64,000 nt of DNA from Ilumatobacter sp. GTDB taxonomy: Bacteria; Actinomycetota; Acidimicrobiia; Acidimicrobiales; Ilumatobacteraceae. The stretch spans positions 2,436,955-2,500,954 of the forward strand of contig NZ_OZ244049.1 of assembly GCF_965215205.1 (NCBI RefSeq), given 5' to 3'. A model generated the notes under the pieces. The model searched no databases, had not been told where the DNA came from, and saw nothing but the letters and a program-made list of their open reading frames with translations. The translations under genes and the position numbers were made by a program. Below, in pieces: positions 22,454 to 52,696 of the stretch (the first letter of the stretch is position 1; each line of letters starts with the position of its first letter).

Positions 22454-23734
<1,281 letters not shown>

Positions 23735-29339: not shown

Positions 29340-29396
29340 CGGAGCGCCCCACCGCCGAGTCGCTCGCGACCGTCGACCTCGACGCGCCGCGCCACG

Positions 29397-30496: not shown

Positions 30497-30640
30497 CCCG
30501 CCGGCGGACGCTCCGCACGACCGTCCGCTGACGACGCGCACCGACGCACCCGGCTCGTCGGGGGTGACCCCGGCGGGGCAGGATCTCCCCATCCGGTCCA
30601 CGGCCACGGGCCGTCGGTCCACGGCAGGGAGGTCAGCGAG

Positions 30641-31030: not shown

Positions 31031-31113
31031 GGAGCACCTCGCGGCGCTCGATCCGGCACGCCGGCCGGTGCCGGGCACCGCACGGCGCCGAGGCGACGGC
31101 GTAGGTTCGGGTC

Positions 31114-31416
31114 GTGCACGATCCGCTGTGGAAGAGGGCGTTCGACGCCGTGGAGACCCGGGCCGCTCCGGTCCTGACGAAGGTGTTCGCGAACGAGGAC
31201 GTGATCGAGGCGATGCGCGTGGCCGCCGCGGTCCGCAAGCGCACGATGGACGATCTCGGCGACCTCATCCGGCGCAACCTGCACACGGTCAACCTCCCCT
31301 CGGGCACCGACGTGCGGAAGGTCTCGAACCAGGTCGCGTCGCTCGAGCGGCAGATCCGGGTCCTCGACCGACGGATCGACGAGCTCCGGGCCGAGGGCTC
31401 CGCCGACGACTCCTGA
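31114..31416 (+). CDS. Small coiled-coil protein, PhaE-like partner of PHA synthase
   Basis: NLPSGTDVRKVSNQVASLERQIRVLDRRIDEL resembles the PhaE C-terminus; directly upstream of phaC; TAGGTT 6 nt before the GTG. Confidence 0.6.
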   Translation: MHDPLWKRAFDAVETRAAPVLTKVFANEDVIEAMRVAAAVRKRTMDDLGDLIRRNLHTVNLPSGTDVRKVSNQVASLERQIRVLDRRIDELRAEGSADDS

Positions 31417-31567
31417 GCGACCCGCGGCCACGACGCGGGCGACGCCCGCCCCATCGACGAGGGCGATCGCCTCGTCGTGCTCGTGTCGTGCGACGTGTGA
31501 GGCCACGGCGCCCCCCGGGGCGCTCACCGGCTCGTCACGACGTCGTGCGAGCGAGCAGGATCGGACC

Positions 31568-32647: not shown

Positions 32648-32705
32648 GGGCCACCGGCTCGTCCGCTGAGCGACGACGTCGGCGGCGTCCCTAGGGTCGG
32701 GCGGC

Positions 32706-34088
32706 GTGGAGCGTCGACCGAACATCGTCCTGATCAACTGCGACGACCTCGGCTACGGCGACCTCGGTTGCTACGGCTCGGAGCTGAACGCCACCCCCGC
32801 CCTCGACCGCCTCGCGGCGCAGGGCGCCCGCCTCACCGACTTCATGATGGCGTCGCCGGTGTGCTCGCCGTCGCGCGGCGCGCTGCTGACGGGGTGCTAC
32901 CCGCCCCGCATCGGGTTCGGGTCGTTCGACGGCCTCCCGGTGCTGTTCCCGGGCCAGGCCGTGGGGCTCGACCCCGGTGAGGTGAGCATCGGGCGGCTGC
33001 TGTCCGACGCCGGCTACGCGACGCTGATGGTCGGCAAGTGGCACTGCGGCGACCAGTCGGAGTTCCTCCCGACGAACCACGGCTTCGACCGCTACTTCGG
33101 CCTGCCGTACAGCAACGACATGGGCCGCCAGAGCGGGACGCCGACCACCGACACCGGCGAGCAGCGCGGCTACCCGCCGCTCCCCCTCCTCGACGACGAC
33201 GAGGTGATCGAGCAGCAGCCCGACCAGACGTCGCTGACCGGTCGCTACGTGACCGAGGTGCTGCGCTTCGTGCGCGAGCACCGCGACCGACCGTTCTTCG
33301 TCTACCTCGCCCACCTCTACGTGCACCTGCCGATCTACGTCCAGGAGCGGTTCGCCCGGCAGGCGCGCAACGGCCGCTACGGCGCGGCGGTGGAGTCGAT
33401 CGACTGGGCCGCCGAGGTGATCTTCGCCGAGCTGGAGCGCCTCGGGCTCGCCGACGACACCCTCGTGGTGTTCACGAGTGACAACGGCGCGCTCGATCGC
33501 GCCGACGGCGGCTCCAACCGCCCGCTGCGCGGCTCGAAGGGATCCACGTGGGAGGGCGGCATGCGGGTGCCGTGCATCGCCCGGTGGCCCGGGCGCATCG
33601 AGGCCGGACGGGTCGTCGACGAGCTGGCGACGTCGATGGACCTGTTCGCGACCTTCGCGGCGCTGGCCGGAGCCGAGGTGCCGCCCGATCGCGAGATCGA
33701 CGGCCGCGACCTGTCCGCGATGCTGCTCGACGACGGGGCCAGCCCGCACGAGTCGTTCGCGTACTGGTGGATGGACGACCTGTGCGCGGTCCGCTCGGGA
33801 CGATGGAAGCTGCACCTCGCCCGCCACGGCGAGCAGCACGAGGAGCTCTACGACCTCGTCGACGACCTCGGCGAGTCGCACGACGTCGCCGCTGCGCATC
33901 CCGAGGTCGTCCAGCGCCTCCGGGACGTGGCCGAGGGGTGGCGGCGCCGGCTGGGCGATGCGCGACTCGGGGTCGAGGGGGCCGAGGTGCGCCGCCTCGG
34001 ACGGGTCGCCGAACCCCGCACGCTGACGACCTACGACCCCGACCACCCCTACTACGCCGCGGAGTACGACCTCCCCGACCGCGGCTGA
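32706..34088 (+). CDS. Formylglycine-dependent sulfatase (arylsulfatase A-like)
   Basis: PNIVLINCDDLGYGDLG, CSPSRGALLTG, GKWH, FTSDNG, KGSTWEGGMRVP; TAGGGT 8 nt before the GTG. Confidence 0.93.
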   Translation: MERRPNIVLINCDDLGYGDLGCYGSELNATPALDRLAAQGARLTDFMMASPVCSPSRGALLTGCYPPRIGFGSFDGLPVLFPGQAVGLDPGEVSIGRLLSDAGYATLMVGKWHCGDQSEFLPTNHGFDRYFGLPYSNDMGRQSGTPTTDTGEQRGYPPLPLLDDDEVIEQQPDQTSLTGRYVTEVLRFVREHRDRPFFVYLAHLYVHLPIYVQERFARQARNGRYGAAVESIDWAAEVIFAELERLGLADDTLVVFTSDNGALDRADGGSNRPLRGSKGSTWEGGMRVPCIARWPGRIEAGRVVDELATSMDLFATFAALAGAEVPPDREIDGRDLSAMLLDDGASPHESFAYWWMDDLCAVRSGRWKLHLARHGEQHEELYDLVDDLGESHDVAAAHPEVVQRLRDVAEGWRRRLGDARLGVEGAEVRRLGRVAEPRTLTTYDPDHPYYAAEYDLPDRG

Positions 34089-34134
34089 CACGTCGCGTCC
34101 GCCACGTCGGCACCTCGCCGTCGTCGATCGACCA

Positions 34135-34668
34135 TCAGCCGGTCGCGGCGGGGTCGCCCTCCTTCGCCCACGCGTGGTGCATCCGACCGTGCCCGGCGTT
34201 GGCGGCCATGATCCCGCCGACCGTCCCGTCCGCCCACGGGGCTCCCGGGATCTCCGAGGCGAGGTCGTCGTCGGACAGCTCGGCGAGCAGCGCCAGGGTG
34301 TCGGCGCGCACCGCCAGACCGATGCGCACGAGCTCGGCGAACTCGGTGCCGCTGTGCTCGGTCTTCCACTCCTCCGTCCAGGCGTGGATGGAGGCCATGA
34401 TCTCGTCCATCGACTGCGCGGTGCCGTCGTCACGCAGGCGCGCGGGGAGGCCACGGTCGCCGGCGAGGTGGCGACGGAACATCGCGTTCCAGTTCTGCTC
34501 GATGAGGGTGGTGTGGATGAAGTGGTCGGCGTACGACCAGCGGCTGTCGGGGTCGTGCTCGCTCACCGTGCGCGCAGCGGTGAGCTCCTCGGTGGACATC
34601 GACCCCAGCCGCTCGAGGAGCCACGTGCGGTCGCGGTTCAGCTCGATCTCGATCTCGATCCGGTCCAT
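34135..34668 (-). CDS. DinB-family four-helix protein
   Basis: WSYADHFIH...HGRMH metal-site pattern; TACGGT 6 nt before the ATG at 34668. Confidence 0.7.
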   Translation of the reverse strand: MDRIEIEIELNRDRTWLLERLGSMSTEELTAARTVSEHDPDSRWSYADHFIHTTLIEQNWNAMFRRHLAGDRGLPARLRDDGTAQSMDEIMASIHAWTEEWKTEHSGTEFAELVRIGLAVRADTLALLAELSDDDLASEIPGAPWADGTVGGIMAANAGHGRMHHAWAKEGDPAATG

Positions 34669-34739
34669 GCGAGGACCGTAGCGATCCGACGGAGCACGGA
34701 TCCGGTTCAGTTCCGGGGTCTCCGTGCCGAAGGACCGAC

Positions 34740-35894
34740 GTGCACCTGCTCGCTCGACGATCCGAGCGGCCCGACCGATCGGGCCGGAGCGCGCGTGCGG
34801 CGCGTCCCGCGTCGGAGGGTCGGCGCTCACCGTGGCGGACGTTCCGCCGTAGCTTCCACCACGTCGCGCTGGTGCGCCTGGTCGGGGCGGGAGGCGCCGC
34901 GGTCGCGATCACCACGGTGCCCTCCGGTGACGCGCTGCTCGGGCGCGCCGTCGCGCTCGCCCTGATCGCGGTGTCGACGACCGTCGCGACCGTGACGGCG
35001 CTCACCGACGTGGTGGGGTCGCGCTCGCCCTCGTCGGTGATCGGCGGTCACGTGGCGTGCGACCTGACCAACATGCTGGTCACCATCGCGGTGATCGATC
35101 CGACGTGCTCGACCGGGGCGTGGACCCTCGTCCTCGTGCCGATCGGAGAAGCTGCGCTGCTCGCCTTCGACCGCCGCGTGGCCGTCGGCGCCGTGGTCGC
35201 CGCGATCGGTGGCCTGTTCGTCCTGATCATGTCGGCGTCGGGTCCGAGCTGGAGCAGCGCCGGGTCCTGGGCGCTGGTCGTCTTCCTGGCCGGTGGACCC
35301 ATGTCGGTCTTCCTCGTCCAGGCGGTGCGCGTGCAGGAAGCCCTGTTCCAGTCCCGGGCCGCACGACGCTCGCTGCACGAGATGGCGACGCACGACGAGC
35401 TCACGGGGCTGCTCAACCGGCGGGGGCTGCTCGAGCACGCCGCGGCCTCGTCGATGCCGGCTGCCGTGCTGTTCGTCGACCTCGACCGGTTCAAGACGGT
35501 CAACGACACCCTCGGCCACGATGCCGGCGACATCGTCCTGCGCACCGTCGCGTCGCGCATGGCCGACGTCGCCGGCGACGACGCCGTGGTGGCGCGGCTG
35601 GGCGGCGACGAGTTCGCGGTCGTCGTGAGCGATGCGGACGCCGTCGCGACCCTGCCCGCGCTGATCGTGTCGGCGTGCGCGGAGGCGATCGTCGTCAGGG
35701 GGGTCGACGCCCGCATCGGTGCCAGCGTCGGCTCGGCGGTGGCCGGCACCGACGGCGACGACCTGCTCTCGCTCATCGACCACGCCGACTCGGAGATGTA
35801 CGCCCGCAAGGCGCGGACCCGGCCGTCGGCCGACGCGCCGATCGAGCGCCGCGCCGCCCGGCCGGTCGACGACGTCGTCGCCGCTCGCTCCTGA
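34740..35894 (+). CDS. Membrane-anchored GGDEF diguanylate cyclase
   Basis: Several hydrophobic helices, then HDELTGLLNRR, DLDRFKTVNDTLGH, RLGGDEF; start uncertain. Confidence 0.88.
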   Translation: MHLLARRSERPDRSGRSARAARPASEGRRSPWRTFRRSFHHVALVRLVGAGGAAVAITTVPSGDALLGRAVALALIAVSTTVATVTALTDVVGSRSPSSVIGGHVACDLTNMLVTIAVIDPTCSTGAWTLVLVPIGEAALLAFDRRVAVGAVVAAIGGLFVLIMSASGPSWSSAGSWALVVFLAGGPMSVFLVQAVRVQEALFQSRAARRSLHEMATHDELTGLLNRRGLLEHAAASSMPAAVLFVDLDRFKTVNDTLGHDAGDIVLRTVASRMADVAGDDAVVARLGGDEFAVVVSDADAVATLPALIVSACAEAIVVRGVDARIGASVGSAVAGTDGDDLLSLIDHADSEMYARKARTRPSADAPIERRAARPVDDVVAARS

Positions 35895-36009
35895 CCGGTC
35901 GTCGCCCGTGCGTGGCGTCGCGCCACGAGGCGGTCGGGATGCTCGACGACGTGGACGAGGTGGCGGATCGTGACGTGCGCGATCCACGGGCGGCTCGACT
36001 CGGTCCACC

Positions 36010-37236
36010 TCACCCCGGCGCGCCGCCCAGGCCGGCGATCCGGTCCTCGCTCCACCCGAGATCGGACATCACCTCGGCGGTGTGCTGGCCGAGACGGGGG
36101 GCGTGGATCCGCACCGTCTCCTCGGAGCCGTCGCGACTGGCGAAGCGGATCGGGTCGCGGGTGACGCGGTAGGGGCCCTCGGTGGGATGGGTCTCGTGGG
36201 CGAGCAGGTCGACGGCGGCGAAGTGCGGGTCGTCGTCGACGTGCTCCAGGCGCAGGACCGCCGACGCGGGGATCGAGTGCTCGACGCAGAAGTCGATCAG
36301 CTCCGCGGTGGTGACGTCGGCGACGAACTCGTCGAGCATCGAGTACAGCTCGTCGGAGTGCGCGATCCGCGCACGTTGGGAGGCGAAGCGCTCGTCGTCG
36401 ACGAGGTCCGCTCGGCCGACCCACCCGAAGAAGTCGGCCCAGTTGACGTCGGTGTAGGGCATCACCACGACCCACCCGTCCGCGCTCCGGCGGGGCCGTC
36501 GGTGCGGTGTGGTGATCCGGGCGTAGCTGAACGGGCCCTCGGGCGGTTCGAAGGTCTTGCCGCCGAGGTGCTCGACGAGGTTGAACGCCGCCATCACCTC
36601 GGCCATCGGCACCTCGATGGCATCGCCCTCGCCGGTCATCGCACGCCGGTAGAGGGCGGCGGTGATCGCCGGCACGATGTGCAGCCCGACGACCTTGTCG
36701 CAGATGATCGACGGGACGAGCTGCGGGTCGCCACCTGCGTAGGTGAACAGATCCGCGACACCCGACGCCGCCTGGATGACGTCGTCGTAGGCGGCGCGAT
36801 CCGCCGACGGGCCGTCGCTGCCGAAGCCGTTGGCGACGCAGTGGACGATGTCGGCTCGGACGGCTCGCACGCTCGTCGCGTCGAGGCCGAGCCGTTCGAG
36901 CGCGGATCGTCGCATCGTGGTGACGAACACGTCGGCGGACGCGATCAGGTCGCCGATCGCGGCCCGCCCCTCATCTGACTTGAGGTCGAGCACGACGCTG
37001 CGCTTGTTGCGGTTCAGGTTCACGCTGAACGCGCTCATCGCCGGGCTCCGCATCGGTTCGTAGTGCCGGATGATGTCGCCGCCGGGAGCTTCGACGCGGA
37101 TCACGTCGGCTCCGAGGTCGGCGAGCATCCGGGTGGCCAGCGGCCCCATCACCACCGACGTGAGGTCGACGACGCGCACCCCGTCGAGCGGTCCGACGCT
37201 CCTGGCGGAGCCGTCGGGATCAGCGGAGGCGGGCAC
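36010..37236 (-). CDS. CaiB/BaiF family (class III) CoA-transferase
   Basis: PLDGVRVVDLTSVVMGP, LADLGADVIRVE, NRNKRSVVLDLK, YDDVIQAASG, PRLGQHT; start approximate. Confidence 0.9.
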   Translation of the reverse strand: MPASADPDGSARSVGPLDGVRVVDLTSVVMGPLATRMLADLGADVIRVEAPGGDIIRHYEPMRSPAMSAFSVNLNRNKRSVVLDLKSDEGRAAIGDLIASADVFVTTMRRSALERLGLDATSVRAVRADIVHCVANGFGSDGPSADRAAYDDVIQAASGVADLFTYAGGDPQLVPSIICDKVVGLHIVPAITAALYRRAMTGEGDAIEVPMAEVMAAFNLVEHLGGKTFEPPEGPFSYARITTPHRRPRRSADGWVVVMPYTDVNWADFFGWVGRADLVDDERFASQRARIAHSDELYSMLDEFVADVTTAELIDFCVEHSIPASAVLRLEHVDDDPHFAAVDLLAHETHPTEGPYRVTRDPIRFASRDGSEETVRIHAPRLGQHTAEVMSDLGWSEDRIAGLGGAPG

Positions 37237-37244
37237 CGAGCCAG

Positions 37245-37913
37245 TCAACCACCCGAGGTCGTCGGGACCGTGGCGTCGCGTCGGACCGACGGGCGCCGAG
37301 GTCGGTCGGCGACTCGGTCGCGTGCGACGATCTCGGCGCTCGCGGGGTCGGTGACCTCGTGGTGGACGTGAGCGCGCTGGCCGTCGCGATCGAAGATCAT
37401 GATCAGCTCCGCCGGGGCGTCGATCGCCCTGATCGCGTGGGGCAGCATCGTCGCGAACTCGGCGGCCTCGCCGGTCTCGACGACGATCTCGCGGTCCGCG
37501 AGCAGGAGGAGCGCGCGCCCCTCGACGACGAAGAACCAGTCGTGACCGGGGTGGACCTGCTGCACCGGGGGATCCGTGGTCGGCTCGAGGCGCATCTTGA
37601 TCGCGATCGTCCGACCCGTCGGCCGATTCAGGTTCCACGTCGTGCTCGCACCGGAGCGGCTCGGTGTCGGTCGGATCACCACGTCGTCGTCGCTGCGCAC
37701 GTCGAGGAGCGCGTCGAGACCGATCTCGAGGGCGTCGGCCAGCGGGACGAGCACGTCGAGGCTGATCGAGCGCTTCCCGGTCTCCATCCGGCTGATGGTC
37801 GACGCGCTGATCGCCGTTCGCTCGGCGAGCTCGTCGAGCGAGAGCCCGAGGGTCGTTCGGATGCTGCGCAGGCGCGTCCTCACGACCTGCTCGACGCCCA
37901 CGCTCGCGCTCAT
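37245..37913 (-). CDS. XRE-family HTH + cupin transcriptional regulator
   Basis: LRSIRTTLGLSLDELAERTAISASTISRMETG, HPGHDWFFVVEG; divergent from the oxidoreductase. Confidence 0.88.
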   Translation of the reverse strand: MSASVGVEQVVRTRLRSIRTTLGLSLDELAERTAISASTISRMETGKRSISLDVLVPLADALEIGLDALLDVRSDDDVVIRPTPSRSGASTTWNLNRPTGRTIAIKMRLEPTTDPPVQQVHPGHDWFFVVEGRALLLLADREIVVETGEAAEFATMLPHAIRAIDAPAELIMIFDRDGQRAHVHHEVTDPASAEIVARDRVADRPRRPSVRRDATVPTTSGG

Positions 37914-37985
37914 CGAGCCCGCTCCGGTCTTGCGAATGCTGCAAGGTCTGTTGCGCTCATCGGAGGCGACCCTACCGTTCGGTCC

Positions 37986-39575
37986 ATGACCGAGCACCCC
38001 CACCGCACCATCGAGCGCCGTTGCGACGTCGTGGTCGTCGGCGGCTCGGCCGCCGGGCTGGCGGCCGCGCTGCAACTCCTGCGCCAGCGACGGTCGGTGA
38101 TCGTCGTCGACGCCGGCGAACCCCGCAACGCCCCGGCCGCTCACCTGCACGGGTTCCTGACCCGGGATGGTTCCGCACCGTCGGAGCTGACGGCGATCGG
38201 GCGCTCCGAGGTGCGCGGCTACGGCGGCGAGGTCCTCGACGGGCGCGTCCTCGACGTCGCCGCCGTCGACGACGGCCGCTTCCGTGCCGACCTCGTCGGC
38301 GGTCACTCGATCGTCGCCCGGCGCGTCGTCGTCGCGACCGGGTTGGTCGACGAGCTCCCCGACGTCGACGGGCTCGGGGAGCACTGGGGTCGCGGCGTGA
38401 TCCACTGCCCGTTCTGCCACGGCTTCGAGGTGCGTGACCGCCGGATCGTCCAGCTCCTCACCCACCCGCTCGGGTTGCACCAGGCGGCGCTGTTCCGCCA
38501 GTCGACGTCCGAGCTGACCGTCGTGGTCCACGGCGAGGTGGACGTGGAGGGCGCCGAGCTCGACGCCCTCGAAGCCGGCGGGGTGCGGATCGTCCGCTCG
38601 CAGGCCCGTCGCGTCGTGACGGGCGAGGACGGGCAGATCGCAGCGGTCGAGCTGCTCGACGGCGAGCGGATCGATGCCGAGGCGGTCGTGGTCGGACCAC
38701 GCTTCACGCCACGGCTCGAACCGTTCGCCACGCTCGGTCTGCGGGCGGTCGCCCACCCGAACGGACACGGCGAGCACGTCGAGGCGGACGTCGGCGGAGC
38801 GACGTCGGTGGCCGGCGTCCACGTCGCCGGCAACGTGACCGGACCGAGCCAGCAGGTCCTCCACGCAGCGGCCGACGGCAGCTGGACCGGCGCGACGGTC
38901 GCCGCCGGACTCGCCGCCGAGGACCTCGCCGACGCGTCGCGCCCGACTGCGCACGCCGCCGACTGGGACCTGCGCTACGCCGGCGAGCAGGTGTGGAGCG
39001 GGAACCCGAACGGCAGCCTGGTCCGCGAGGTCGAGCACATGGCGCCCGGCCGAGCCCTCGACGTCGGCGCCGGCGAGGGCGGCGACGCGATCTGGCTCGC
39101 GGAACGTGGGTGGTCCGTGACCGCGAACGACATCTCGAGGGGCGCGCTGGACCGCATCGCGGCCGAAGCGCGCCGACGGGAGCGGGACGTGGAGCTCCTC
39201 CACGCGGACGCGAACGACCGGGCGCCGTTCGAACGGTCGGGGTTCGATCTGGTCTCGGCCTGCTACGCGTCGATCCCACGCACACCGGACGGGCGCGGTG
39301 TCGCCAACCTCATCGGCGCCGTCGCTCCGGGCGGCACCCTGCTCGTCGTCTCCCACGACCTCGCGCCGATGCGTGCTCCGATCGACACCGCCGTGTCGAG
39401 CCGAGCGTTCGATCCCGACGCGCACGTGCGCGTGGACGACGTCGTCGCGGCGCTCCGGGCGACCCCCGGTTGGACGATCGACGTCGCCGAGGCGCGACCA
39501 CGCCCCGCCGGTGCGGCGTCCGCCGGGCACCACGTCGACGACGTCGTGCTCCGAGCGCACCGCTCGTCCGGCTGA
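37986..39575 (+). CDS. Fusion of TrxB/GliT-like FAD oxidoreductase and class I SAM methyltransferase
   Basis: DVVVVGGSAAGL, ATG, HCPFCHGFE, AGN; C-terminal ALDVGAGEGGDAIWLAERGW; TACCGT 7 nt before the ATG. Confidence 0.88.
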   Translation: MTEHPHRTIERRCDVVVVGGSAAGLAAALQLLRQRRSVIVVDAGEPRNAPAAHLHGFLTRDGSAPSELTAIGRSEVRGYGGEVLDGRVLDVAAVDDGRFRADLVGGHSIVARRVVVATGLVDELPDVDGLGEHWGRGVIHCPFCHGFEVRDRRIVQLLTHPLGLHQAALFRQSTSELTVVVHGEVDVEGAELDALEAGGVRIVRSQARRVVTGEDGQIAAVELLDGERIDAEAVVVGPRFTPRLEPFATLGLRAVAHPNGHGEHVEADVGGATSVAGVHVAGNVTGPSQQVLHAAADGSWTGATVAAGLAAEDLADASRPTAHAADWDLRYAGEQVWSGNPNGSLVREVEHMAPGRALDVGAGEGGDAIWLAERGWSVTANDISRGALDRIAAEARRRERDVELLHADANDRAPFERSGFDLVSACYASIPRTPDGRGVANLIGAVAPGGTLLVVSHDLAPMRAPIDTAVSSRAFDPDAHVRVDDVVAALRATPGWTIDVAEARPRPAGAASAGHHVDDVVLRAHRSSG

Positions 39576-45802: not shown

Positions 45803-45849
45803 CGTGGTCGGGGTGGGGAGATTCGAACTCCCGGCCTCCTGCTCCCAAA
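45803..45849 (-). repeat. att-site direct repeat (47 bp copy of the tRNA-Pro 3' part)
   Basis: cgtggtcggggtggggagattcgaactcccggcctcctgctcccaaa is identical to 52617-52663. Confidence 0.95.
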
Positions 45850-46036
45850 TCTGGAAATGGAGGTGCTTCAGGTAACGCCGTTTAGTGCCGAATCTCGTCG
45901 ATTTCTGGCGAGCTAGCTGGGGTGATGCGCGAACTGGTTGAGAATCGCCGGACAAGGCGTCACGTGCCAGTGCACGCCGGATTAATACATCAGCGTTACC
46001 GACGGGCGCCGACGGTGCGGCAGAACCAAGCGATGG

Positions 46037-46527
46037 TCAAAAGGGTTCCTCGTCACTATATGCCGGGTCTGGCGCCTTCTTCTGAGGAATGAGGTACACG
46101 GTCTCGGAGAAGTCGTCATACGCGTAACGGGACGTCCGAGCGAAACGCTGACCCACACTCACATCGCTACTTAGCACGCCGTCGAACACAGCCATCCGCT
46201 GGCCAACCGGCAACGCAACGAACGCTGACCATTCGTCAGCGAGTCGGCGAAATCGCGTGATGCTCATCTGCCCAAGCCGCAGCTCGTCGGCGGTTCGGAG
46301 AAGTACGCGGGTCATCTGTTGCGACCCCTCGTCGGCGGGAGTCTCGTGGACCTCCTCGACACCCGCTCGCTCTAGGAGTTCGTCCCATGCGATGGCCTGC
46401 TCAACGGCTCCTCTGAGGTCGCTAGCGTTCAGACTCCTTAGGACCTCAAGTAGCAATCGAAACTGTATAACGGACCGAGCAACATCCCGCGATGTTGTAT
46501 CGCCCATTGACGAGAGGATGGCAACCT
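46037..46527 (-). pseudogene. 3' part of the DUF4062 gene, cut off by ISL3
   Basis: Reading KVAILSSMGDTTSR...YSDEEPF-stop joins in frame with the 5' part once the IS and one TSD copy are removed. Confidence 0.85.
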
Positions 46528-46535
46528 TCAAATCC

Positions 46536-47948
46536 GGCTCTACGCGGCTGAGCGTGGTGGGTGGCTTCGCAGTCGTGCGGTGGGGTGAGTGTGCCAGTCG
46601 ACGCCTGCGTGGAGCAAGAGGCGGAGTCGGTAGTTGTCGAAGCTGGCGAAGCCGTGGCCGACTCGTTTGATCTTCTTGATCAGCAAGTTGATGCCCTCGG
46701 TCGGCCCGTTGGAGAGTCCGCCGGTGGTGTGGAACGCGAGGATCTCGGTCTCCCACGAACTGATTGTCTTGGCGAGGCGGACGAGTTCGCCGACCTCGGC
46801 GTCAGCCACGAACGTGTAGAAGACGTGGAGTCGTTGGCGGGCCTCAGCGAGGGTGCCGGCGGTGTAGATCTCCCGAACGAGTTCCTTGCCCAGCCAGGCT
46901 GCTCCGACCTCGCCGTAGCGGTCACCGACCAGTCCCGCCTCGACGCGTTCGAGCTGGCGTTCGGTGAGGCGTTCGTAGCCGCGTAGCAACAGTCGGCGAA
47001 TGCCGTAGAGCGGATCACCGGTGCGGCCTCGGTGCCCGAGGGTGTCTTGTTGCACCCGTCTGCGCACGTCGTCAACAGCGCGGTTGGCGAGCCCGACAGC
47101 ATGGAACCGGTCGACAACGACGACCACGTCGGGCAAGGTCGCGGTGAGCCCGTTGGCGTAACCGCGGTGCGGATCGAGAGCGACCTGGTCGATCCCGGCC
47201 AGCCAACCAGCGGGTTGTTGTGCGAGCCAGGAATCAACAGCAGCACCGGTCCGGTCCAACACGACGTCGAGGAGTCGCGGTCGGGCGAGGTCGACGAAAC
47301 CAGTGATGTAGCTCGTGTGACCGCGATGCTTCGATGGCCGCTGGAACGCTGTCTCGTCCAGGCCGAGCTTGGTGACATGGCCGATTCGATCGGGGTCGTT
47401 GACGAGGCGTCGGCCGTGCACGTTGACGGCGTTCATCGCGCACGCCCAGCCGACACCGAAGTCGCGGCCGACCGCCGCGACCGAGTCGCCGTCCTCGCCG
47501 ACCCGGCGACAGATCTCGAACCCGGCCCGCTCGGTCAGCGACGCCCGAGACGCGATCGCGTCGAGGGTCTCGGTCCACGTCACCGTCGCACACAGCGGCT
47601 CGCGGCAGCGCCAGATCCGCTTCACCCAAACGAGCACCGTCGCTCGTCCCCACGTCGCCAGATCGCGCACCCTGACACGCCGACGGCCGTGCGCTTTCGC
47701 GATCACTCCGCACGAGCGGCACCCGACCCGGTCGTTGGTTGTCTCGATCGTGATCGTCACCTCGACGCCGACCTCGACAGCGCAGATCCGCACACCAATC
47801 AGCCCGAGCAGCGCGTCCGCGTTGCTACCTTCAATCATCCCGTGGTCTCCTCGTCTCGCAGTTGTGGAAGACCGCAAGACTTGCGAGGCCACGGGACCTC
47901 AACAGTGGATGCTCAAGAAACCACCACCACGCTCAAGCGCGAAGAGCC
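46536..47948 (-). mobile_element. ISL3-family insertion sequence, apparently intact
   Basis: Imperfect terminal IRs (ggctctacgcggctgagcgtggtgg / ggctcttcgcgcttgagcgtggtgg); 8-bp TSD tcaaatcc at 46528-46535 and 47949-47956. Confidence 0.93.
46540..47838 (-). CDS. ISL3 family transposase
   Basis: CRSC Zn finger, LGLDETAF, VALDPHRGY, VDRFHAV, SNGPTEGINLLIKKIKRVGHGFASFDNYRLRLLL. Confidence 0.93.
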   Translation of the reverse strand: MIEGSNADALLGLIGVRICAVEVGVEVTITIETTNDRVGCRSCGVIAKAHGRRRVRVRDLATWGRATVLVWVKRIWRCREPLCATVTWTETLDAIASRASLTERAGFEICRRVGEDGDSVAAVGRDFGVGWACAMNAVNVHGRRLVNDPDRIGHVTKLGLDETAFQRPSKHRGHTSYITGFVDLARPRLLDVVLDRTGAAVDSWLAQQPAGWLAGIDQVALDPHRGYANGLTATLPDVVVVVDRFHAVGLANRAVDDVRRRVQQDTLGHRGRTGDPLYGIRRLLLRGYERLTERQLERVEAGLVGDRYGEVGAAWLGKELVREIYTAGTLAEARQRLHVFYTFVADAEVGELVRLAKTISSWETEILAFHTTGGLSNGPTEGINLLIKKIKRVGHGFASFDNYRLRLLLHAGVDWHTHPTARLRSHPPRSAA

Positions 47949-48630
47949 TCAAATCCTCGAGCTGCTCCGACAGAGTGTCAACCCGGTGCGTCCGCTGGGA
48001 AGACTGCCGAGACTCGGCGAGCAATCGTTTAAACAATGAAGCCCATTGCCGCTTGAGTGTCGCTTCAATCTCCTCGATCCGAGAGAAGGGGAAGATTGCG
48101 TTATTAACGACGCGAGCATTCAGGAAGTCCAGAAACGTAAAGATATACCGGGCGAACTCAGGTTGCGATATCGATGCGAAATCAATGTCATCTGCAAACG
48201 ATTTATCACGGTTGGCAATGTAGGTTGCATGATCGTGGAGCACACGCTCCTCAACGAACGAGAAGACCGGCAACCCGTCTTGCACGGCCTTTAGCAGCTC
48301 AATCTGAGTGATGGAGACTTGAGATCCACCGATCGCATCGATTGCTCCGCCTCCTTCGAATCTTTCAAGTAGATCGTCGTCGATTTGCGCAAGGGCTGAC
48401 GGATTGGCCACGCTGCCAAATCGCGAACCAACGATCAGAACCATCGCGTCACATGAGGCAAGCTCTTTCAGGCAGCTTGATTGTGCGTTGTCCCGAGGAT
48501 CGTAAAGAATGTCGGCGTACTCGCTTAGGACTGGTTCGTACGATAGTGAGAGTATGGCCGACCTCAACTGTCCGCGAGCATGTCCGAGGTCATACGCGGT
48601 CGAAGAAACGAAGACTCGGGGCGCCGCCAT
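47949..48630 (-). pseudogene. 5' part of a DUF4062 (TIR-like) domain gene interrupted by ISL3
   Basis: PRVFVSSTAYDL, CLKELASCDAMVLIVGSRFGS, SITQIELLKAVQDGLPVF; native frame ends at ...EQLEDL at the TSD. Confidence 0.85.
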
Positions 48631-48744
48631 CGGTTCAACGATAGCCCTGAAGAGTTCTTCTTGTGCATCAGAACACTGGTTGTCTGCTGCCGGACGACGT
48701 CAGCGACATCAACCCACTACATCCACCCCTGTGCGTAGCAAACG

Positions 48745-50023
48745 ACACCCGCCGATTCGAAGTGGACACTTGATTCTGGGGATGACCCCTCAGAGGAAGG
48801 AGGCCCGGATGGGTCGTCCAGCGAAGTATCCAGCAGAGTTCCGATGCGAAGCGTTGGCGCTCGTGAAGTCATCAGGCCGACCAATCGCGGAGGTCGCGAG
48901 ATCTCTGTCGATCGCGGAGGGCACCTTGTGGAATTGGGTGAGAGCCGATCGAGACAGTCCGAGCGTGATGCCGACCCCGACGCATTGTCTGAGTCCGAAC
49001 GCGCCGAGCTGAAGCGGCTCCGCAAGGAGAACGTGCAGCTCGCGACTGACATGGAGATCCTGCGCAAGGCTGCAGCGCCTTTCGCGAGGAGACGAACAGG
49101 TGACCGGCTTCCGGTTCGTCGACGATCACCAAGCCGGCCACCGCACCGTCGACCTGTGCCGCATCGCTGGTGTCGCGAGGTCGAGCTACTACGCGTGGCG
49201 CACCCGAACACCGTGCGCCCGCCAGCGAGCCAACGCCGAGTTACTGATCGAGATTCGCGAGAACCACGAACAATCGCGACGCACGTATGGGGCGCCCCGG
49301 GTCACGGGCCAGTTGCGGCGACGAGGCCATCGTGTCGGCCACAACCGCGTGGCTCGGCTGATGGCCGACAACCACCTGGTCGGAGCGCACGCACGCCAAA
49401 AGTTTCGGCGCGGCCGGCACCCCAAGATCGTGCCGGCCCCCGATCTGTTGCAACGCGACTTCACCGCGGAGCGGCCCGACACTCGATGGGTTGCGGACGT
49501 CTCGGAGTTCACGTGCTGGGACGGAAAGCTCTATCTCGCCGGGATCCGTGACCTCCACGACCACACCCTCGTCGGCTGGTCGATGGACGAACGCCAGACC
49601 ACCGACCTCGTCATCGCTGCGTTGGTGATGGCGCTCGGACGCCACAACACCGGCCGCGATCTCGTTCACCACGCCGACCACGGGACCCACGGCGGATTCC
49701 ACTACACGTCGCTCAAGTTCACCAACCGACGCCACGACTGGGGCCTTATCGGCAGCTACGGATCGGTCGGTGACTGCTACGACAACTCCGCCATCGAGGG
49801 CTACTGGGCGACGATGAAGACCGAGATCCGCCACATCTGGGGACCTTTCGGTGAGCGCACCCGATCCGAGGTACGCACGATCCTGTTCGACTACATCGAG
49901 ACGTTCTACAACCGCACCCGACACAACAAGCCCTCGGCCACCGCGCCCCCGCCGAGGTCTACGCTCACGCCCAGACCGGCTGATCAGCCGGGACCCCGTG
50001 TCCATCAGAACGGGTCAACTCCA
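48745..50023 (+). mobile_element. Degenerate IS3-family element (orfA and orfB frameshifted)
   Basis: orfA from 48809 (MGRPAKYPAEFR...LWNWVR / ERAELKRLRKEN, split across frames); orfB from 49100 (RTYGAPRV, WVADVSEF, DHG, GDCYDNSAIEG, YIETFYNRTRH, then frameshift); right end gtgtccatcagaacgggtcaactcca; left IR only partial. Confidence 0.85.
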
Positions 50024-50137
50024 CGAACCCCGAACTCCCACTCCCGCAGCTGCTCGGTCTACCTTCAGGCGGTTGAGACCACAACAGTCGGTATTCGACG
50101 GAGACGCGGGTGGGCGCAGCTGAGCCTCTCGGCGGCG

Positions 50138-51388
50138 TCAGCGCGCCCGGTTGGCGACATCAAGGTGGCAGCGCTTGAACTTCTCACCCGATCCACAGGG
50201 GCATGGTTCGTTGCGGCCGACCGACGTCGGCGACACCATCCGTCCACGTTCCCGATCGAACATCCCATGCTCGCAGAGAATCGCCCAGCGAATCTCCGAG
50301 GGAACTGTGCTGCGATGGCCCGTGACGAGCACGCTGCTCTGGAGAACACTTCCATCCTCGGCCTGGACTCTCGCGATTCCCAGTGTCGGCCCCGGGACTG
50401 CAAAATGAAGCGCCAGTTCGTCGTGACGAACCGCGGTGAGCGCTGCCAGCCACGCCGCCACGTCCGACTCCGCATCGTCATAGTTCGTTGCCTGATCGGT
50501 GAGGAACACGATCGAGCCAACACCCGGCTCGACCCTCATCATGCCGCTCTTCCTCAACCCGGACTCTAGTGACTTCGACGCGACATCGATCAACTTCGCA
50601 CCAAACTCTACGCGGTGCAGCGGCGGGAGCGCATCCAGCACCTCGATGGCTAGGCGCTGATCGTCCGGGTCGCTCCAAGGGCCCTCGCCTGGCGCTTGAC
50701 CGCCGATTACTTCGATCCGCTCGTCAACAACGAGCGCGTGAATCAGGTCGCGATCACGGAGCGGCTCACCGGGCAACATCGGAAGGCTGGTCTTCGACCC
50801 AGGCGCTCCCGAATCGGCGTCTGCGAACCGGAAGTAGCGCTCGGACTCGTTGTCCAGGGTGACGTGGGTATTGGAACCAAGCACCCGCTCGACGTAGCTG
50901 ATGACTGCCGACGTCGATAGCAGCATGGAGTGCAATGCCTCCCAGTCTCGGCGAGAGATCACCAGAGTGTTGCTGTCCTCGGACTCTGGCCAGAACATCT
51001 CCGGCATCACGGGCATGTCGACGATGATCACCCCAGGCCACTCGCTCCCTCTTCCAGCCAGGGACTTCTCGTGGCCGCGCATCGACCTCACCACAACATC
51101 GCCATTTGAAGCCAGGGTCCGGCGCGTGCCAAAAACCTGTCGCTCCGCAGCTGCTATCTCCTTTGCAGCCCAACGAGCCGCGCGCTCCGGAGAGTCCTCG
51201 GCCGACGGCTGACGGGCCTTCGACTGCAAGATCAACCCTCGGTCGCCGGCGATCAACAAACCGTCGCTGACTTCGCGGGTCGCGCCGCCCTTCCCCACGA
51301 GTACGGGCTCGAACACGAAGTCAGGAACGCCAAGGCTGGCCGCCACTCGACGCACCGCTCTCTCAGACTGGATGCCCCAATCCGACAC
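50138..51388 (-). CDS. Putative NERD/PD-(D/E)xK-like nuclease domain + C-terminal SEC-C motif protein
   Basis: REVSDGLLIAGDRGLILQSK near the N-terminus; VGRNEPCPCGSGEKFKRCH at the C-terminus; GTG 7 nt after the integrase stop. Confidence 0.75.
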   Translation of the reverse strand: MSDWGIQSERAVRRVAASLGVPDFVFEPVLVGKGGATREVSDGLLIAGDRGLILQSKARQPSAEDSPERAARWAAKEIAAAERQVFGTRRTLASNGDVVVRSMRGHEKSLAGRGSEWPGVIIVDMPVMPEMFWPESEDSNTLVISRRDWEALHSMLLSTSAVISYVERVLGSNTHVTLDNESERYFRFADADSGAPGSKTSLPMLPGEPLRDRDLIHALVVDERIEVIGGQAPGEGPWSDPDDQRLAIEVLDALPPLHRVEFGAKLIDVASKSLESGLRKSGMMRVEPGVGSIVFLTDQATNYDDAESDVAAWLAALTAVRHDELALHFAVPGPTLGIARVQAEDGSVLQSSVLVTGHRSTVPSEIRWAILCEHGMFDRERGRMVSPTSVGRNEPCPCGSGEKFKRCHLDVANRAR

Positions 51389-51395
51389 GTCTAGG

Positions 51396-52520
51396 TCACC
51401 GTCGACCAATCCGCTCAACCACCGCCAGCTGACTGGTCGGGAGGGCATGCGCGTAGGTGTTCATGAGCATCTCGGGGCTGTGACCGAGGATGTCGGCGAT
51501 GGCTCGAAGCTCGCCCAGGTCCTTCGACTGCTGGACCATGTGCGTCGCCGCCGTGTGGCGCAGACCGTGTGAGGTCAGCCTCGGTAGCCCGGCTCGCTGG
51601 ACGAATCGTTCGAGCGCCCGGTCATACGACCTCGGCAACACGAGACCGCCCTGGCGGGTGGCGATGATCAGATCGTTGTCCACCCACTCGGCCCCGGCAG
51701 CCAACCGCTCAGCCGCCTGCTCGGCTCGACGGCGGGTCATTACTCGCAGCGTCTCGTCGACGAGCGGGATCGTCCGGCGTGACCGCTCGTTCTCTGCGTT
51801 GCTCCACGACGCACCGAAGCGGACGGCGACGAGGCTCTCGTGGATGCGGAGCGTGCCGGCCTCGTCGTCGAAGCCGTCCCACTTCAACGCCAGCAGCTCA
51901 CTTCGTCGCAGTCCGTAGAGAACGTTCAGCCTGAAGGCGATCGCCCAGCGATGCCACGACGTCGCTTCGAGGAACGCTTCGACCTCGTCGACGGTCCACG
52001 TCTCGGTCTCCTTCTCACGAACCGGCTTCGCCACCGTCCGGGGCAAGCCGACCCGAGCCGCTGGGCTTCGAGGGATCAATCCCTCGTCGACGGCCTCGGT
52101 CAACGCAGCGCGCAGAACCGTCCGGCAGATCTGGACCGATCGTCTAGACAGCTTGCCGCCGTTCGCCAGCGCCTCGATCCAACCGGCTACGTCATCACGG
52201 TCGAGCATCGACAGCTCGATCGCACCGAGTCCAGCCTCGATGTGCGGGATCGCCCAGGCGTACTGCTCTTGCGCCTTCGGGGTGATGCCGGTCCGGCCGG
52301 CGACGTAGCGCCGCACGAGCCAGCTCACCGTCCCCGTCGCGACGGCCACGTCCTCGGCGCGCATCTGCCGAGCGGCCGCGTTCGCCGACCGCTGGGACTG
52401 GAACGTGCCGAGCCGTTTTGGTTTGTGCTTGCCCGTGACGGTGTCGATCCCGCCGACGCGCACGACGTACTTCCCGCGCTGCTTGCGGACCGTCGGTCGA
52501 CCGGTTGCCTTCCACGCCAT
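51396..52520 (-). CDS. Tyrosine recombinase/integrase
   Basis: YGLRRSELLALKW, HGLRHT, LGHS, TYAH; catalytic R-H-R-H-Y set present; adjacent to the tRNA att site. Confidence 0.94.
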   Translation of the reverse strand: MAWKATGRPTVRKQRGKYVVRVGGIDTVTGKHKPKRLGTFQSQRSANAAARQMRAEDVAVATGTVSWLVRRYVAGRTGITPKAQEQYAWAIPHIEAGLGAIELSMLDRDDVAGWIEALANGGKLSRRSVQICRTVLRAALTEAVDEGLIPRSPAARVGLPRTVAKPVREKETETWTVDEVEAFLEATSWHRWAIAFRLNVLYGLRRSELLALKWDGFDDEAGTLRIHESLVAVRFGASWSNAENERSRRTIPLVDETLRVMTRRRAEQAAERLAAGAEWVDNDLIIATRQGGLVLPRSYDRALERFVQRAGLPRLTSHGLRHTAATHMVQQSKDLGELRAIADILGHSPEMLMNTYAHALPTSQLAVVERIGRR

Positions 52521-52618
52521 CGGCGCTCTCCTCGATGCTCAGCCGCCCCCGGACTGATACATCGGTGATGCAACAGCGTGTCAACCCGGTCGCCGAGCTG
52601 GAAAACACCAACTCAACG

Positions 52619-52696
52619 TGGTCGGGGTGGGGAGATTCGAACTCCCGGCCTCCTGCTCCCAAAGCAGGCGCGCTAACCAAGCTGCGCTACACCCCG
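52619..52696 (-). tRNA. tRNA-Pro(TGG)
   Basis: CGGGGTGTAGCGCAGCTTGGTTAGCGCGCCTGCTT-TGG-GAGCAGGAGGCCGGGAGTTCGAATCTCCCCACCCCGACCA; cloverleaf with encoded CCA. Confidence 0.97.

What the first reader, a model, noticed from the sequence alone, without database searches (positions are those of the whole stretch)
45803..52663. Minimal tRNA-Pro integrative islet carrying an integrase plus two putative defence genes
Seen: identical 47-bp repeats at 45803-45849 and 52617-52663 (tRNA-Pro 3' part) bound a lower-GC segment. Removing the two IS elements leaves about 4 kb with three co-oriented genes: tyrosine integrase (catalytic residues present), nuclease-like/SEC-C, and DUF4062. No excisionase, replication, conjugation or phage genes are visible. 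Known: tRNA-targeting integrative elements are hotspots for anti-phage cargo. Inference: this is a stripped-down defence islet, and the SEC-C nuclease + TIR-like DUF4062 pair may be an undescribed two-gene system.
Basis: partly seen in the sequence, partly recalled or inferred. Interest (0 to 1): 0.7.

Follow-up and report, generated by a model that had tools for sequence, protein, structure and literature searches.

The report
tRNA-Pro islet with two unrelated cargo genes
A small mobile island inserted at a proline tRNA gene carries an integrase, a transposon-broken copy of a recently described anti-phage NAD-destroying enzyme, and an unrelated uncharacterised nuclease-like protein; the two cargo genes are independent passengers, not a new two-gene defence system.

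Summary
Observation confirmed. Exact 47-nt direct repeats (45803-45849; 52617-52663, the 3' part of tRNA-Pro(TGG)) bound a 6.8-kb segment. Without its two IS elements it is 4.08 kb at 62% GC, against 71% in the flanks. It holds three minus-strand genes. The first is a tyrosine integrase. The second is a 416-aa SEC-C-motif protein that starts 7 nt after the integrase stop. The third is a DUF4062 gene split by an ISL3 element with an 8-bp target duplication; read across the insertion it gives an uninterrupted 390-aa protein.

The DUF4062 protein belongs to a widespread family of about 390 aa (DUF4062+DUF8285). It has a TIR-like fold, a conserved catalytic Glu, a helical stalk and a C-terminal sensor. 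Single-gene DUF4062 NADase abortive-infection systems were described in 2026 (Swarozyc, Evangelion), so this is a known kind. Here it is knocked out by a recent IS insertion, and its sensor is not like that of KpSwz.

The two cargo genes are not a system. They never co-occur elsewhere (0 of 6 other genomes with either gene, and none of the other contexts read) and share no conserved neighbour. The SEC-C protein belongs to an uncharacterised family carried on mobile elements (at least 321 clusters). Its model is confident and largely novel, with a weakly PD-(D/E)xK-like N-domain. Its function is open. In relatives the same integrase/att module carries a relaxase-helicase instead.

The parts
45803..45849 (.). 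Distal att repeat (displaced 3' part of tRNA-Pro), left boundary of the islet
   Evidence: Exact 47-nt match to 52617-52663.
46037..46535 (-). DUF4062 gene, 3' fragment: end of the stalk plus the AUX/DUF8285 sensor, residues about 226-390, with the stop codon
   Evidence: Reads in frame with the 5' fragment once ISL3 and one duplication copy are skipped. Matches profile positions 223-371 of the family at E 5e-30.
46536..47948 (-). ISL3-family insertion sequence (transposase 46540-47892), a recent insertion
   Evidence: DDE_Tnp_ISL3 at E 1e-53. Terminal inverted repeats of 25 nt (I5). TSD TCAAATCC at 46528-46535 and 47949-47956. Nine other copies in the genome at 99.9-100% identity.
47949..48630 (-). 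DUF4062 gene, 5' fragment: TIR-like NADase domain and first half of the stalk, residues 1-227. The open frame runs on into the IS to 47899 (243 aa).
   Evidence: PF13271 at 61 bits. Invariant S106, T108 and E111, and Q195-W196. Matches profile positions 1-228 at E 1e-102.
48762..50023 (+). IS3-family element, an older and decayed copy, inserted in the spacer between the SEC-C and DUF4062 genes
   Evidence: HTH_Tnp_1, HTH_21 and rve domains. 88-91% identical to other genome copies. One-nt differences from those copies at 48953, 49087 and 49923. Possible 4-bp duplication CGAA if the element starts at 48762.
50138..51388 (-). SEC-C-motif protein, 416 aa from GTG 51388: PD-(D/E)xK-like N-domain, novel middle and C-terminal domains, C-terminal Zn knuckle
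   Evidence: SEC-C at E 1e-9. Homologues begin at this point. The GTG lies 7 nt after the integrase TGA. Model pLDDT 91. Weak nuclease-fold matches.
51396..52520 (-). Tyrosine integrase, 374 aa, with an arm-binding N-terminus
   Evidence: PF00589 at 72.9 bits and Arm-DNA-bind_4. Orthologues of 82-92% identity lie next to tRNA-Pro in same-genus genomes.
52619..52696 (-). tRNA-Pro(TGG). Its 3' 45 nt lie within the proximal att repeat (52617-52663).
   Evidence: ARAGORN; repeat.

Best explanation
This is a small genomic islet of 4.08 kb (6.8 kb with two IS elements). A tyrosine integrase inserted it into the 3' end of tRNA-Pro(TGG), duplicating 47 nt of the tRNA as att repeats.

The integrase/att module belongs to a family of integrative elements that uses this tRNA repeatedly in the genus. 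In relatives that module is followed by a relaxase-helicase. Here that part is absent, and the integrase is followed by two unrelated, individually mobile single-gene passengers.

Passenger 1 is a DUF4062+DUF8285 protein of 390 aa. It has a TIR-like NAD-hydrolase domain with catalytic Glu111, a long helical stalk, and a helical/winged-helix sensor domain. By analogy with Swarozyc and Evangelion, I infer that it stays auto-inhibited until its C-terminal sensor binds a phage component. It would then deplete NAD+ and abort the infection. In this genome a recent ISL3 insertion in the stalk (after residue 227) separates the enzyme from its sensor, so the gene is inactive for defence.

Passenger 2 is a 416-aa protein, probably translationally coupled to the integrase. 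It has a PD-(D/E)xK-like N-domain (E29, D62, Q75-x-K77), two domains without known relatives, and a SEC-C zinc knuckle. It is a stand-alone gene found on plasmids, conjugative elements and islands. Most likely it is a metal-dependent nuclease used in conflicts between mobile elements, phages and hosts, but its role has not been shown.

Shown here: the anatomy, the family memberships, the fold predictions, and the lack of co-occurrence. Inferred: NADase activity, the defence role, and nuclease activity.
For: Islet:
- Exact att repeats, the tRNA and the GC drop.
- Integrase orthologues of 82-92% identity sit beside tRNA-Pro in G001 and G003, and tandem att copies sit at tRNA-Pro in G016 and G001.
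- A relaxase/helicase follows the orthologous integrase in G001 and G028.

DUF4062 gene:
- The TSD and the in-frame 390-aa read-through.
- 164 homologues, nearly all about 380-400 aa with PF13271+PF26934; the best is 83% identical.
- Invariant SxTQxE and QW motifs.
- The model of the 83% homologue has pLDDT 84 and shows a beta/alpha domain, a 50-residue helix and a helical/beta C-domain.
- Foldseek hits are TIR-STING, RPS4/RUN1/SARM1 TIR domains, NDT and DNPH1, with probabilities up to 1.00.
- DUF4062 has been shown to be a TIR-like NADase giving single-gene abortive defence that needs its AUX domain.
- Homologues lie in defence neighbourhoods: an E. coli hotspot with reverse transcriptases and a P4-like satellite, and G109 next to a type I MTase and a PD-T7-4-like gene.

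Independence of the two genes.

SEC-C protein:
- Model pLDDT 91 and pTM 0.90.
- The only structural matches are PD-(D/E)xK folds: Can2 nuclease domain, Cas4 SSO0001, tRNA-splicing endonuclease, RecE and UL24.
- Invariant R58, E59 and D62; Q75 and K77 conserved in at least 90% of sequences.
- Contexts include a conjugative element next to TrwC, an integrase-bearing contig, Streptomyces and Mycobacterium plasmids, and one record of the phage collection.
Against: - I could not establish that the DUF4062+DUF8285 lineage itself has been tested. The solved KpSwz chain matches the family profile only at E 0.54, over core residues 4-75, and shows no AUX similarity. The trigger and even the activity are therefore extrapolated.
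- PADLOC 2023 has no model for either protein.
- The SEC-C nuclease assignment rests on weak Foldseek scores (E about 0.01-0.05, TM about 0.18) and a motif. No Pfam nuclease family matches any of the 36 members scanned.
- Only 2-3 of 10 immediate neighbours of SEC-C homologues hit defence models.
- No clean empty site was found in relatives, because flank synteny is not kept.
- Excision could not be assessed, because only assembled contigs were available.
- The expected beta-hairpin Lys of the integrase is not obvious by eye.
Confidence: 0.75

Rival explanations
1. One reading: the SEC-C nuclease and the DUF4062 protein form one two-gene defence system, with one acting as sensor or effector partner of the other.
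For: They are adjacent and co-oriented on the same islet, about 240 bp apart once IS3 is removed. Both plausibly have effector-type domains.
Against: They do not co-occur. In 400 genomes of the phylum the SEC-C family is in 5 and the DUF4062-AUX family in 1, with no genome holding both. No DUF4062 gene lies in the eight other SEC-C contexts compared, and no SEC-C gene lies in the DUF4062-AUX contexts read. Published DUF4062 systems work as single genes. The spacer of about 240 bp argues against an operon.
Confidence: 0.04
2. The SEC-C protein is not cargo but part of the element's own machinery. It could be an integration/excision accessory factor, or an establishment or anti-defence factor of relaxase-bearing integrative elements.
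For: Its start lies 7 nt after the integrase stop, which suggests translational coupling. In a conjugative element a homologue sits 45 nt upstream of the TrwC relaxase, downstream of SSB and ParA-like genes. Integrase orthologues in relatives are followed by relaxase-helicases.
Against: At E<1e-8 neither an integrase nor a relaxase is shared across the nine contexts compared, the window included. Several copies lie in chromosomal variable regions or on plasmids with no integrase nearby. In 400 genomes of the phylum the family is in 5, and the closely related integrases seen beside tRNA genes in relatives are followed by other genes.
Confidence: 0.15
3. The SEC-C protein has no nuclease activity. 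The N-domain is a degenerate restriction-endonuclease-like fold used for binding, and the protein acts as a sensor, a regulator or a ribosome/Zn-dependent factor.
For: Q stands at the second acidic position (Q75). The structural scores are low and there is no Pfam nuclease hit. SEC-C knuckles in SecA, YchJ and YecA are binding modules.
Against: E59 and D62 are invariant and K77 is conserved in at least 90% of 36 diverse sequences. From my own knowledge, untested here, D...QxK active sites exist in working enzymes such as Tn7 TnsA.
Confidence: 0.25

Closest known systems
Swarozyc (KpSwz), the single-gene DUF4062 NADase defence (bioRxiv 10.64898/2026.05.01.722283)
   Same: N-terminal DUF4062 TIR-like domain with a catalytic Glu. 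A helical stalk follows, then a C-terminal helical/winged-helix auxiliary domain. It is a stand-alone gene found on islands. The predicted mode of action is sensor-released NAD+ hydrolysis leading to abortive infection.
   Different: The auxiliary domain shows no detectable sequence similarity to KpSwz: the profile scores E 0.54 against PDB chain 10wc_A and aligns only core residues 4-75. This family has roughly 25-30 extra residues between the GSRFG loop and the SxTQxE motif and is about 390 aa long, against the 326-aa solved KpSwz chain. The trigger is therefore unknown. The copy here is split by ISL3.
Evangelion (Eva01-04), DUF4062 core plus diversified AUX on mobile elements (bioRxiv 10.64898/2026.06.25.731849)
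   Same: A single gene with a conserved N-terminal aromatic residue (F7 here), a catalytic Glu and a Q/W motif (Q195-W196 here). AUX truncation abolishes defence. It is carried by plasmids, satellites and integrative elements.
   Different: Which Evangelion lineage, if any, contains the DUF8285-type proteins could not be determined from the text. Eva01 appears shorter and has a different AUX.
tRNA-targeting genomic islands and integrative mobilisable elements of Actinobacteria
   Same: The integrase lies next to the intact tRNA. The direct repeat equals the tRNA 3' part. GC is deviant and the cargo is variable. The same att site is reused in relatives.
   Different: There is no excisionase, relaxase or replication gene. 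It is only 4 kb, so it is probably a reduced derivative.
Rugutis, a lactococcal plasmid single-gene antiphage protein with a SEC-C motif (PMC11381338)
   Same: It is a stand-alone, plasmid-borne protein of about 360-420 aa. A SEC-C knuckle is the only recognisable motif, and the AlphaFold model is confident but has no PDB relative. A subfamily of the present family also carries the knuckle at the N-terminus.
   Different: Homology was not tested because the Rugutis sequence was not at hand. tblastn of two family members against the plasmid collection listed no Lactococcus record among the rows shown or the top organism counts.
PD-(D/E)xK nucleases (Can2/Card1 nuclease domain, Cas4, tRNA-splicing endonuclease, RecE)
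   Same: The predicted N-domain has an alpha-beta-beta-beta-beta-alpha core with conserved E...D...QxK residues. These folds are the only structural matches found.
   Different: The similarity is very weak (E at least 0.009, TM about 0.18). No sequence-profile membership was found. Q replaces the usual acidic residue.

Membership tests
tRNA-integrated genomic island (tyrosine-integrase type) | Direct repeats, one of which is the 3' part of a tRNA gene | tested here: met
   47-nt exact repeat; the right copy lies inside tRNA-Pro(TGG).
tRNA-integrated genomic island (tyrosine-integrase type) | Integrase gene adjacent to the intact tRNA, inside the repeats | tested here: met
   The integrase (51396-52520) lies 98 nt from the tRNA 3' end and scores 72.9 bits against PF00589.
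tRNA-integrated genomic island (tyrosine-integrase type) | Absent from related genomes (empty site), or same site used with other cargo | tested here: inconclusive
   No syntenic empty site was found because the flanks are not adjacent in relatives. However, tRNA-Pro carries tandem att copies with other cargo in G016 and G001. Integrase orthologues of 82-92% identity sit by tRNA-Pro with different cargo. Among 30 relatives the DUF4062-AUX family is absent and the SEC-C family appears in 1-2.
tRNA-integrated genomic island (tyrosine-integrase type) | Excision to a circle with attP, and restoration of attB | not testable with these tools
   Only assembled contigs of the source run were available, and they show no joined form.
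DUF4062 single-gene NADase defence (Swarozyc/Evangelion superfamily) | N-terminal DUF4062 domain above the Pfam threshold | tested here: met
   PF13271 at 61.1 bits against a cut-off of 24.7.
DUF4062 single-gene NADase defence (Swarozyc/Evangelion superfamily) | Catalytic Glu and the Q/W motif conserved | tested here: met
   S106, T108, E111, Q195 and W196 are invariant across 14 sequences. The equivalent T, Q, E, Q and W columns are invariant across 69.
DUF4062 single-gene NADase defence (Swarozyc/Evangelion superfamily) | TIR-like / nucleoside-deoxyribosyltransferase-like fold | tested here: met
   The model of the 83%-identical homologue matches TIR and NDT/DNPH1 structures with probability up to 1.00, at E 0.002-0.1.
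DUF4062 single-gene NADase defence (Swarozyc/Evangelion superfamily) | C-terminal auxiliary domain on the same polypeptide; stand-alone gene | tested here: met
   The 390-aa read-through aligns end to end with full-length homologues carrying PF26934. No partner gene is conserved across the contexts read.
DUF4062 single-gene NADase defence (Swarozyc/Evangelion superfamily) | Intact, functional gene | tested here: not met
   ISL3 lies inside the stalk after residue 227. Published AUX truncations are inactive.
DUF4062 single-gene NADase defence (Swarozyc/Evangelion superfamily) | NAD+ hydrolysis and phage protection | not testable with these tools
   This needs an experiment.
Swarozyc in the narrow sense (KpSwz-like) | Auxiliary (portal-sensing) domain homologous to KpSwz AUX | tested here: not met
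   The family profile scores E 0.54 against the KpSwz chain 10wc_A, and only core positions 4-75 align. phmmer with the protein itself finds nothing at E up to 1.
PD-(D/E)xK nuclease superfamily (SEC-C protein N-domain) | Restriction-endonuclease-like core fold | tested here: inconclusive
   The best Foldseek matches are PD-(D/E)xK proteins, but only at E 0.009-0.05 and TM about 0.18.
PD-(D/E)xK nuclease superfamily (SEC-C protein N-domain) | Conserved D ... (D/E/Q)-x-K catalytic pattern | tested here: met
   D62 is invariant. Q75 and K77 are conserved in at least 90% of sequences, and E29 and E59 are conserved. This is a pattern only.
PD-(D/E)xK nuclease superfamily (SEC-C protein N-domain) | Match to a curated nuclease sequence family | tested here: not met
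   None of the 36 members hits a Pfam nuclease family, even at E up to 1. NCBIfam hits only the SEC-C motif.
   None of 5 SEC-C genomes carries a DUF4062-AUX gene, and the one other DUF4062-AUX genome carries no SEC-C gene. No shared neighbours were found.
Rugutis | Sequence or structural homology to pUCCL633_059 | not tested
Only the descriptive resemblance could be noted.

The most novel reading that the evidence does not exclude
The SEC-C/PD-(D/E)xK-like protein would represent an undescribed, widespread family of stand-alone proteins carried on mobile elements. The family has at least 321 clusters at 50% identity. Some members have an N-terminal instead of a C-terminal Zn knuckle, and some are fused to an unknown 350-aa domain. 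The protein would act as a single-gene nuclease in defence against phages or rival mobile DNA, and it may be a distant relative of the lactococcal Rugutis system.
Probability: 0.3. Interest if true: 0.6.

Novelty: new member of a known kind. Interest (0 to 1): 0.33.

Why it matters
The islet is an ordinary example of how tRNA-targeting integrases move defence genes, and of how an IS burst can silence an abortive-infection gene. Two points have some value.

First, the islet places a distinct DUF4062+DUF8285 lineage in high-GC Actinobacteria. Its sensor is not like that of KpSwz. It has close intact relatives in marine metagenomes and a 41%-identical homologue in an E. coli defence hotspot. That gives a ready set of proteins for asking what this second sensor type recognises.

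Second, the islet flags an uncharacterised SEC-C family with a confident, largely novel fold. The family rides on plasmids, conjugative elements and islands, and it is a reasonable candidate for functional screening.

The specific claim of a new two-gene system can be dropped.

Tried and rejected
- PADLOC-DB 2023 on all cargo proteins and homologues hit only the SEC-C knuckle (E2, PDC-S12 C-termini). That is uninformative.
- Empty-site search with the joined flanks in 30 relatives failed. The flank genes are not syntenic with tRNA-Pro there, so no clean attB was found.
- I looked for excision in public reads. The only holder is the source sample, kept as contigs. Those confirm the junctions but cannot show rare circles.
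- P0002 and P0104 share a contig length of 6150, which hinted at co-location. The contig read holds no DUF4062 gene.
- tblastn of the read-through DUF4062 protein against plasmids gave one weak Agrobacterium hit.
- I tried to place the protein in Swarozyc by sequence. The KpSwz chain in the PDB shares only the generic core.
- The third DUF4062 preprint (NIR, 10.64898/2026.09.04.749371) could not be opened.
- I tried to link the SEC-C family to Rugutis. The Rugutis sequence was not retrievable, and no Lactococcus record appeared among the listed plasmid hits.
- Pfam and PADLOC on the 700-770-aa fusion relatives found nothing in their N-terminal halves.
- The promoter and terminator scans were no better than shuffles.

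Full report
**1. Observation**

The two 47-nt repeats are exactly identical, at 45803-45849 and 52617-52663. The bases on either side differ.

ARAGORN places tRNA-Pro(TGG) at 52619-52696 on the minus strand. The right repeat is therefore the 3' 45 nt of the tRNA plus two bases. The left repeat is the displaced copy that a tRNA-targeting integrase leaves behind.

GC falls from about 0.70-0.72 in the flanks to 0.50-0.67 inside. The flanks are 70.7%, the island without IS elements is 61.8%, and the genome is 71.5%.

Short-read unitigs of a public run reproduce each junction at 100% identity and at single-copy depth. These junctions are flank/att, att/island, island/ISL3, ISL3/DUF4062, IS3/SEC-C and int/tRNA. 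That run is probably the sample the genome came from, so it is not independent support.

**2. Anatomy**

All three genes are on the minus strand, downstream of the tRNA.

*Integrase, 52520..51396.* It is 374 aa, scores 72.9 bits against PF00589, and has a weak arm-binding domain match. By eye it contains the motifs LRRSE, HGLRHT, LGHS and NTYAH. I could not see the hairpin Lys.

*SEC-C protein.* The longest ORF starts at 51448. All homologues begin about 20 residues later, and a GTG at 51388 lies 7 nt after the integrase TGA. I therefore take 51388..50138 (416 aa) as the gene, probably translationally coupled to the integrase. The deposited gene call (P0001, 314 aa) cuts off the conserved N-domain.

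*IS3-family element, about 48762-50023.*
- It lies in the spacer between the SEC-C and DUF4062 genes.
- It is only 88-91% identical to the other genome copies.
- It differs from them by single-base deletions.
- It is therefore an old, decaying insertion.

*DUF4062 gene.*
- It starts at 48630 and is interrupted at 47948/46536 by a 1413-bp ISL3 element.
- The element has 25-nt inverted repeats and the 8-bp duplication TCAAATCC.
- Nine other copies in the genome are 99.9-100% identical, so this is a recent insertion.
- Skipping the IS and one duplication copy gives an uninterrupted 390-aa frame.

Without the two IS elements the islet is 4080 bp. Nothing resembling an excisionase, replication, transfer or phage gene fits in the remaining space.

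**3. The DUF4062 gene**

The 390-aa read-through finds 164 homologues. Nearly all are 380-400 aa and are annotated PF13271 (DUF4062) plus PF26934 (DUF8285). The best is 83% identical and comes from marine metagenomes. Others are from Aeromonas, Serratia, Vibrio, Acinetobacter and Paenibacillus.

Conserved residues include F7, S9-S10-T11, D14, R19, G68/R70/G72, S106/T108/E111 and Q195-W196.

A model of the 83% homologue has pLDDT 84. It shows three parts:
- a beta/alpha domain (residues 18-195);
- a 50-residue helix (198-247);
- a helical/beta C-terminal domain (251-387).

Foldseek matches the first part to TIR domains (TIR-STING, RPS4, RUN1, SARM1, SPARTA) and to nucleoside deoxyribosyltransferase and DNPH1, with probabilities up to 1.00.

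Three 2026 preprints deal with this domain. I could read two.
- Osinski et al. show that DUF4062 is a TIR-like NADase and that single DUF4062+AUX proteins ('Swarozyc') give abortive-infection defence. KpSwz is auto-inhibited, and its AUX domain binds the phage portal. Both the catalytic Glu and the AUX domain are required.
- Ibarra-Chavez et al. describe 'Evangelion'. It has the same architecture and sits on plasmids and other mobile elements. It has conserved F, E and Q/W motifs, and an AUX truncation is inactive.

The window's protein has all of these sequence features. It is not a close KpSwz relative, however. The solved KpSwz chain (10wc_A, 326 aa) matches the family profile only at E 0.54, over core positions 4-75, and the AUX regions show no similarity. 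This family also has a longer loop before the catalytic motif. I therefore file it in the DUF4062 defence superfamily but not in Swarozyc in the narrow sense.

The neighbourhoods of homologues fit a defence role.
- A 393-aa E. coli homologue is 41% identical over 359 residues, including the AUX region.
- That homologue lies among reverse-transcriptase genes, recombinases and a P4-like satellite.
- The only other homologue found in 400 genomes of the phylum lies next to a type I methyltransferase and a PD-T7-4-like gene.

In the window the ISL3 sits after residue 227, inside the stalk helix. The remaining ORF (243 aa) keeps the enzyme domain but loses the sensor. By analogy with the published truncations it should be inactive.

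**4. The SEC-C protein**

Pfam, NCBIfam and PADLOC recognise only the C-terminal Zn knuckle.

A word-seeded search gave 43 relatives. A full profile search gave 321 clusters at E<1e-30 and 588 at E<1e-10. These include:
- a subfamily with the knuckle at the N-terminus;
- many proteins of 700-770 aa with an unrecognised N-terminal half.

The model is very confident (pLDDT 91, pTM 0.90). Foldseek against the PDB and BFVD gives nothing below E 0.009. The top matches are consistently PD-(D/E)xK folds aligned over roughly 100-240 columns: the Can2 nuclease domain, Cas4 SSO0001, tRNA-splicing endonuclease, RecE, UL24 and phage 'PD-(D/E)XK nuclease' proteins.

In the alignment, R58, E59 and D62 are invariant, and E29, D43, Q75 and K77 are nearly so. 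In the model, D62 precedes one strand and Q75-x-K77 lie in the next, which is the usual geometry of this fold. 'Nuclease-like' is therefore reasonable but unproven.

The genomic contexts are varied:
- beside an integrase on a 6-kb contig;
- 45 nt upstream of a TrwC relaxase in a conjugative element;
- beside a deaminase-domain gene and a trypsin-like gene;
- in variable regions with transposases;
- on linear Streptomyces plasmids, next to a DUF262/GmrSD-like gene or a HEPN-like TIGR02391 gene;
- on one record of the phage collection, from a human faecal sample.

An all-against-all comparison of ORFs from the window and eight other contexts finds no shared neighbour.

**5. Are the two genes a system?**

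No.
- In 400 genomes sampled across the phylum, the SEC-C family is in 5 and the DUF4062-AUX family in 1. None has both.
- In 30 close relatives, the SEC-C family is in 1-2 and the DUF4062-AUX family in none.
- No context of either family that I read contains the other.

**6. The element**

Orthologues of the integrase (82-92% identity) lie beside tRNA-Pro in same-genus genomes G001 and G003. tRNA-Pro in G016 and G001 is followed by two to five att copies, which bracket other cargo. That cargo includes a LysR regulator with transport and metabolic genes, a subtilase, HTH plus DUF6036 nucleotidyltransferase pairs, and a GH65 hydrolase.

In G001 the integrase is followed by an AAA_30/TraI-type helicase. 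In G028 a 64% orthologue lies at tRNA-Ala and is followed by a TrwC relaxase. The module therefore belongs to a family of integrative, probably mobilisable, elements. The islet here looks like a reduced derivative whose transfer genes have been replaced by two passengers.

**7. Verdict**

The description is accurate and the 'defence islet' reading is half right. One cargo gene is a member, now broken, of a newly described single-gene defence kind. The other is an uncharacterised protein carried on mobile elements. The proposed two-gene system is not supported. The most novel reading left open is that the SEC-C family is itself a new single-gene nuclease system.

Noticed in passing
window 46536-47948 and nine other places in the genome (C1: 439906, 2087458, 2108272, 3176946, 3242144, 3439757, 3459495, 3857917, 3882819): The ISL3 element is present in ten copies of 99.9-100% identity. 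That points to a recent transposition burst, and at least this copy inactivated a gene.
   Followed up: partly
window 48762-50023: The islet's IS3-family copy is 88-91% identical to the other genome copies. It lacks single bases at 48953, 49087 and 49923 relative to them. Its orfA is split between two frames, and its orfB frame runs past the element's end.
   Followed up: partly
window 50138-51448: The deposited gene call for the SEC-C protein (P0001, 314 aa) starts at an internal Met and omits the conserved N-terminal domain. The homologues support a GTG start at 51388.
   Followed up: yes
L023 (G001:C45:10500-26500) and L022 (G016:C1:1954500-1971500): tRNA-Pro in same-genus genomes is followed by tandem arrays of three to five att-like copies. 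In G001 these include a twice-repeated HTH_3 + DUF6036 nucleotidyltransferase pair, which may be a toxin-antitoxin-like module.
   Followed up: partly
proteins P0200, P0212, P0225, P0231, P0299 and others: Dozens of clusters are 700-770-aa proteins in which the SEC-C-family body is the C-terminal half. It is fused to a conserved N-terminal region of about 350 aa with no Pfam or PADLOC match.
   Followed up: partly
L044 (E. coli NZ_CP029242.1 3751472-3770166): The E. coli DUF4062+AUX homologue (WP_000908078.1) sits between two reverse-transcriptase genes, recombinases and a P4-like satellite (psu, ogr/delta, Icd-like). This is a typical defence hotspot. It is present in 17 of 5426 complete E. 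coli genomes.
   Followed up: partly
L008 (JGI metagenome contig, 21679-38908): A SEC-C family member lies directly upstream of a TrwC relaxase in a conjugative element that also carries PLDc_2 + DUF87, SSB, a ParA-like gene and a CHAT protease gene.
   Followed up: no
L002-L004 (marine metagenome contigs with P0044): The 83%-identical intact DUF4062 homologue lies beside a serine recombinase and two unannotated genes (157 and 361 aa) that recur on all three contigs. It is thus carried by a different kind of mobile element.
   Followed up: no
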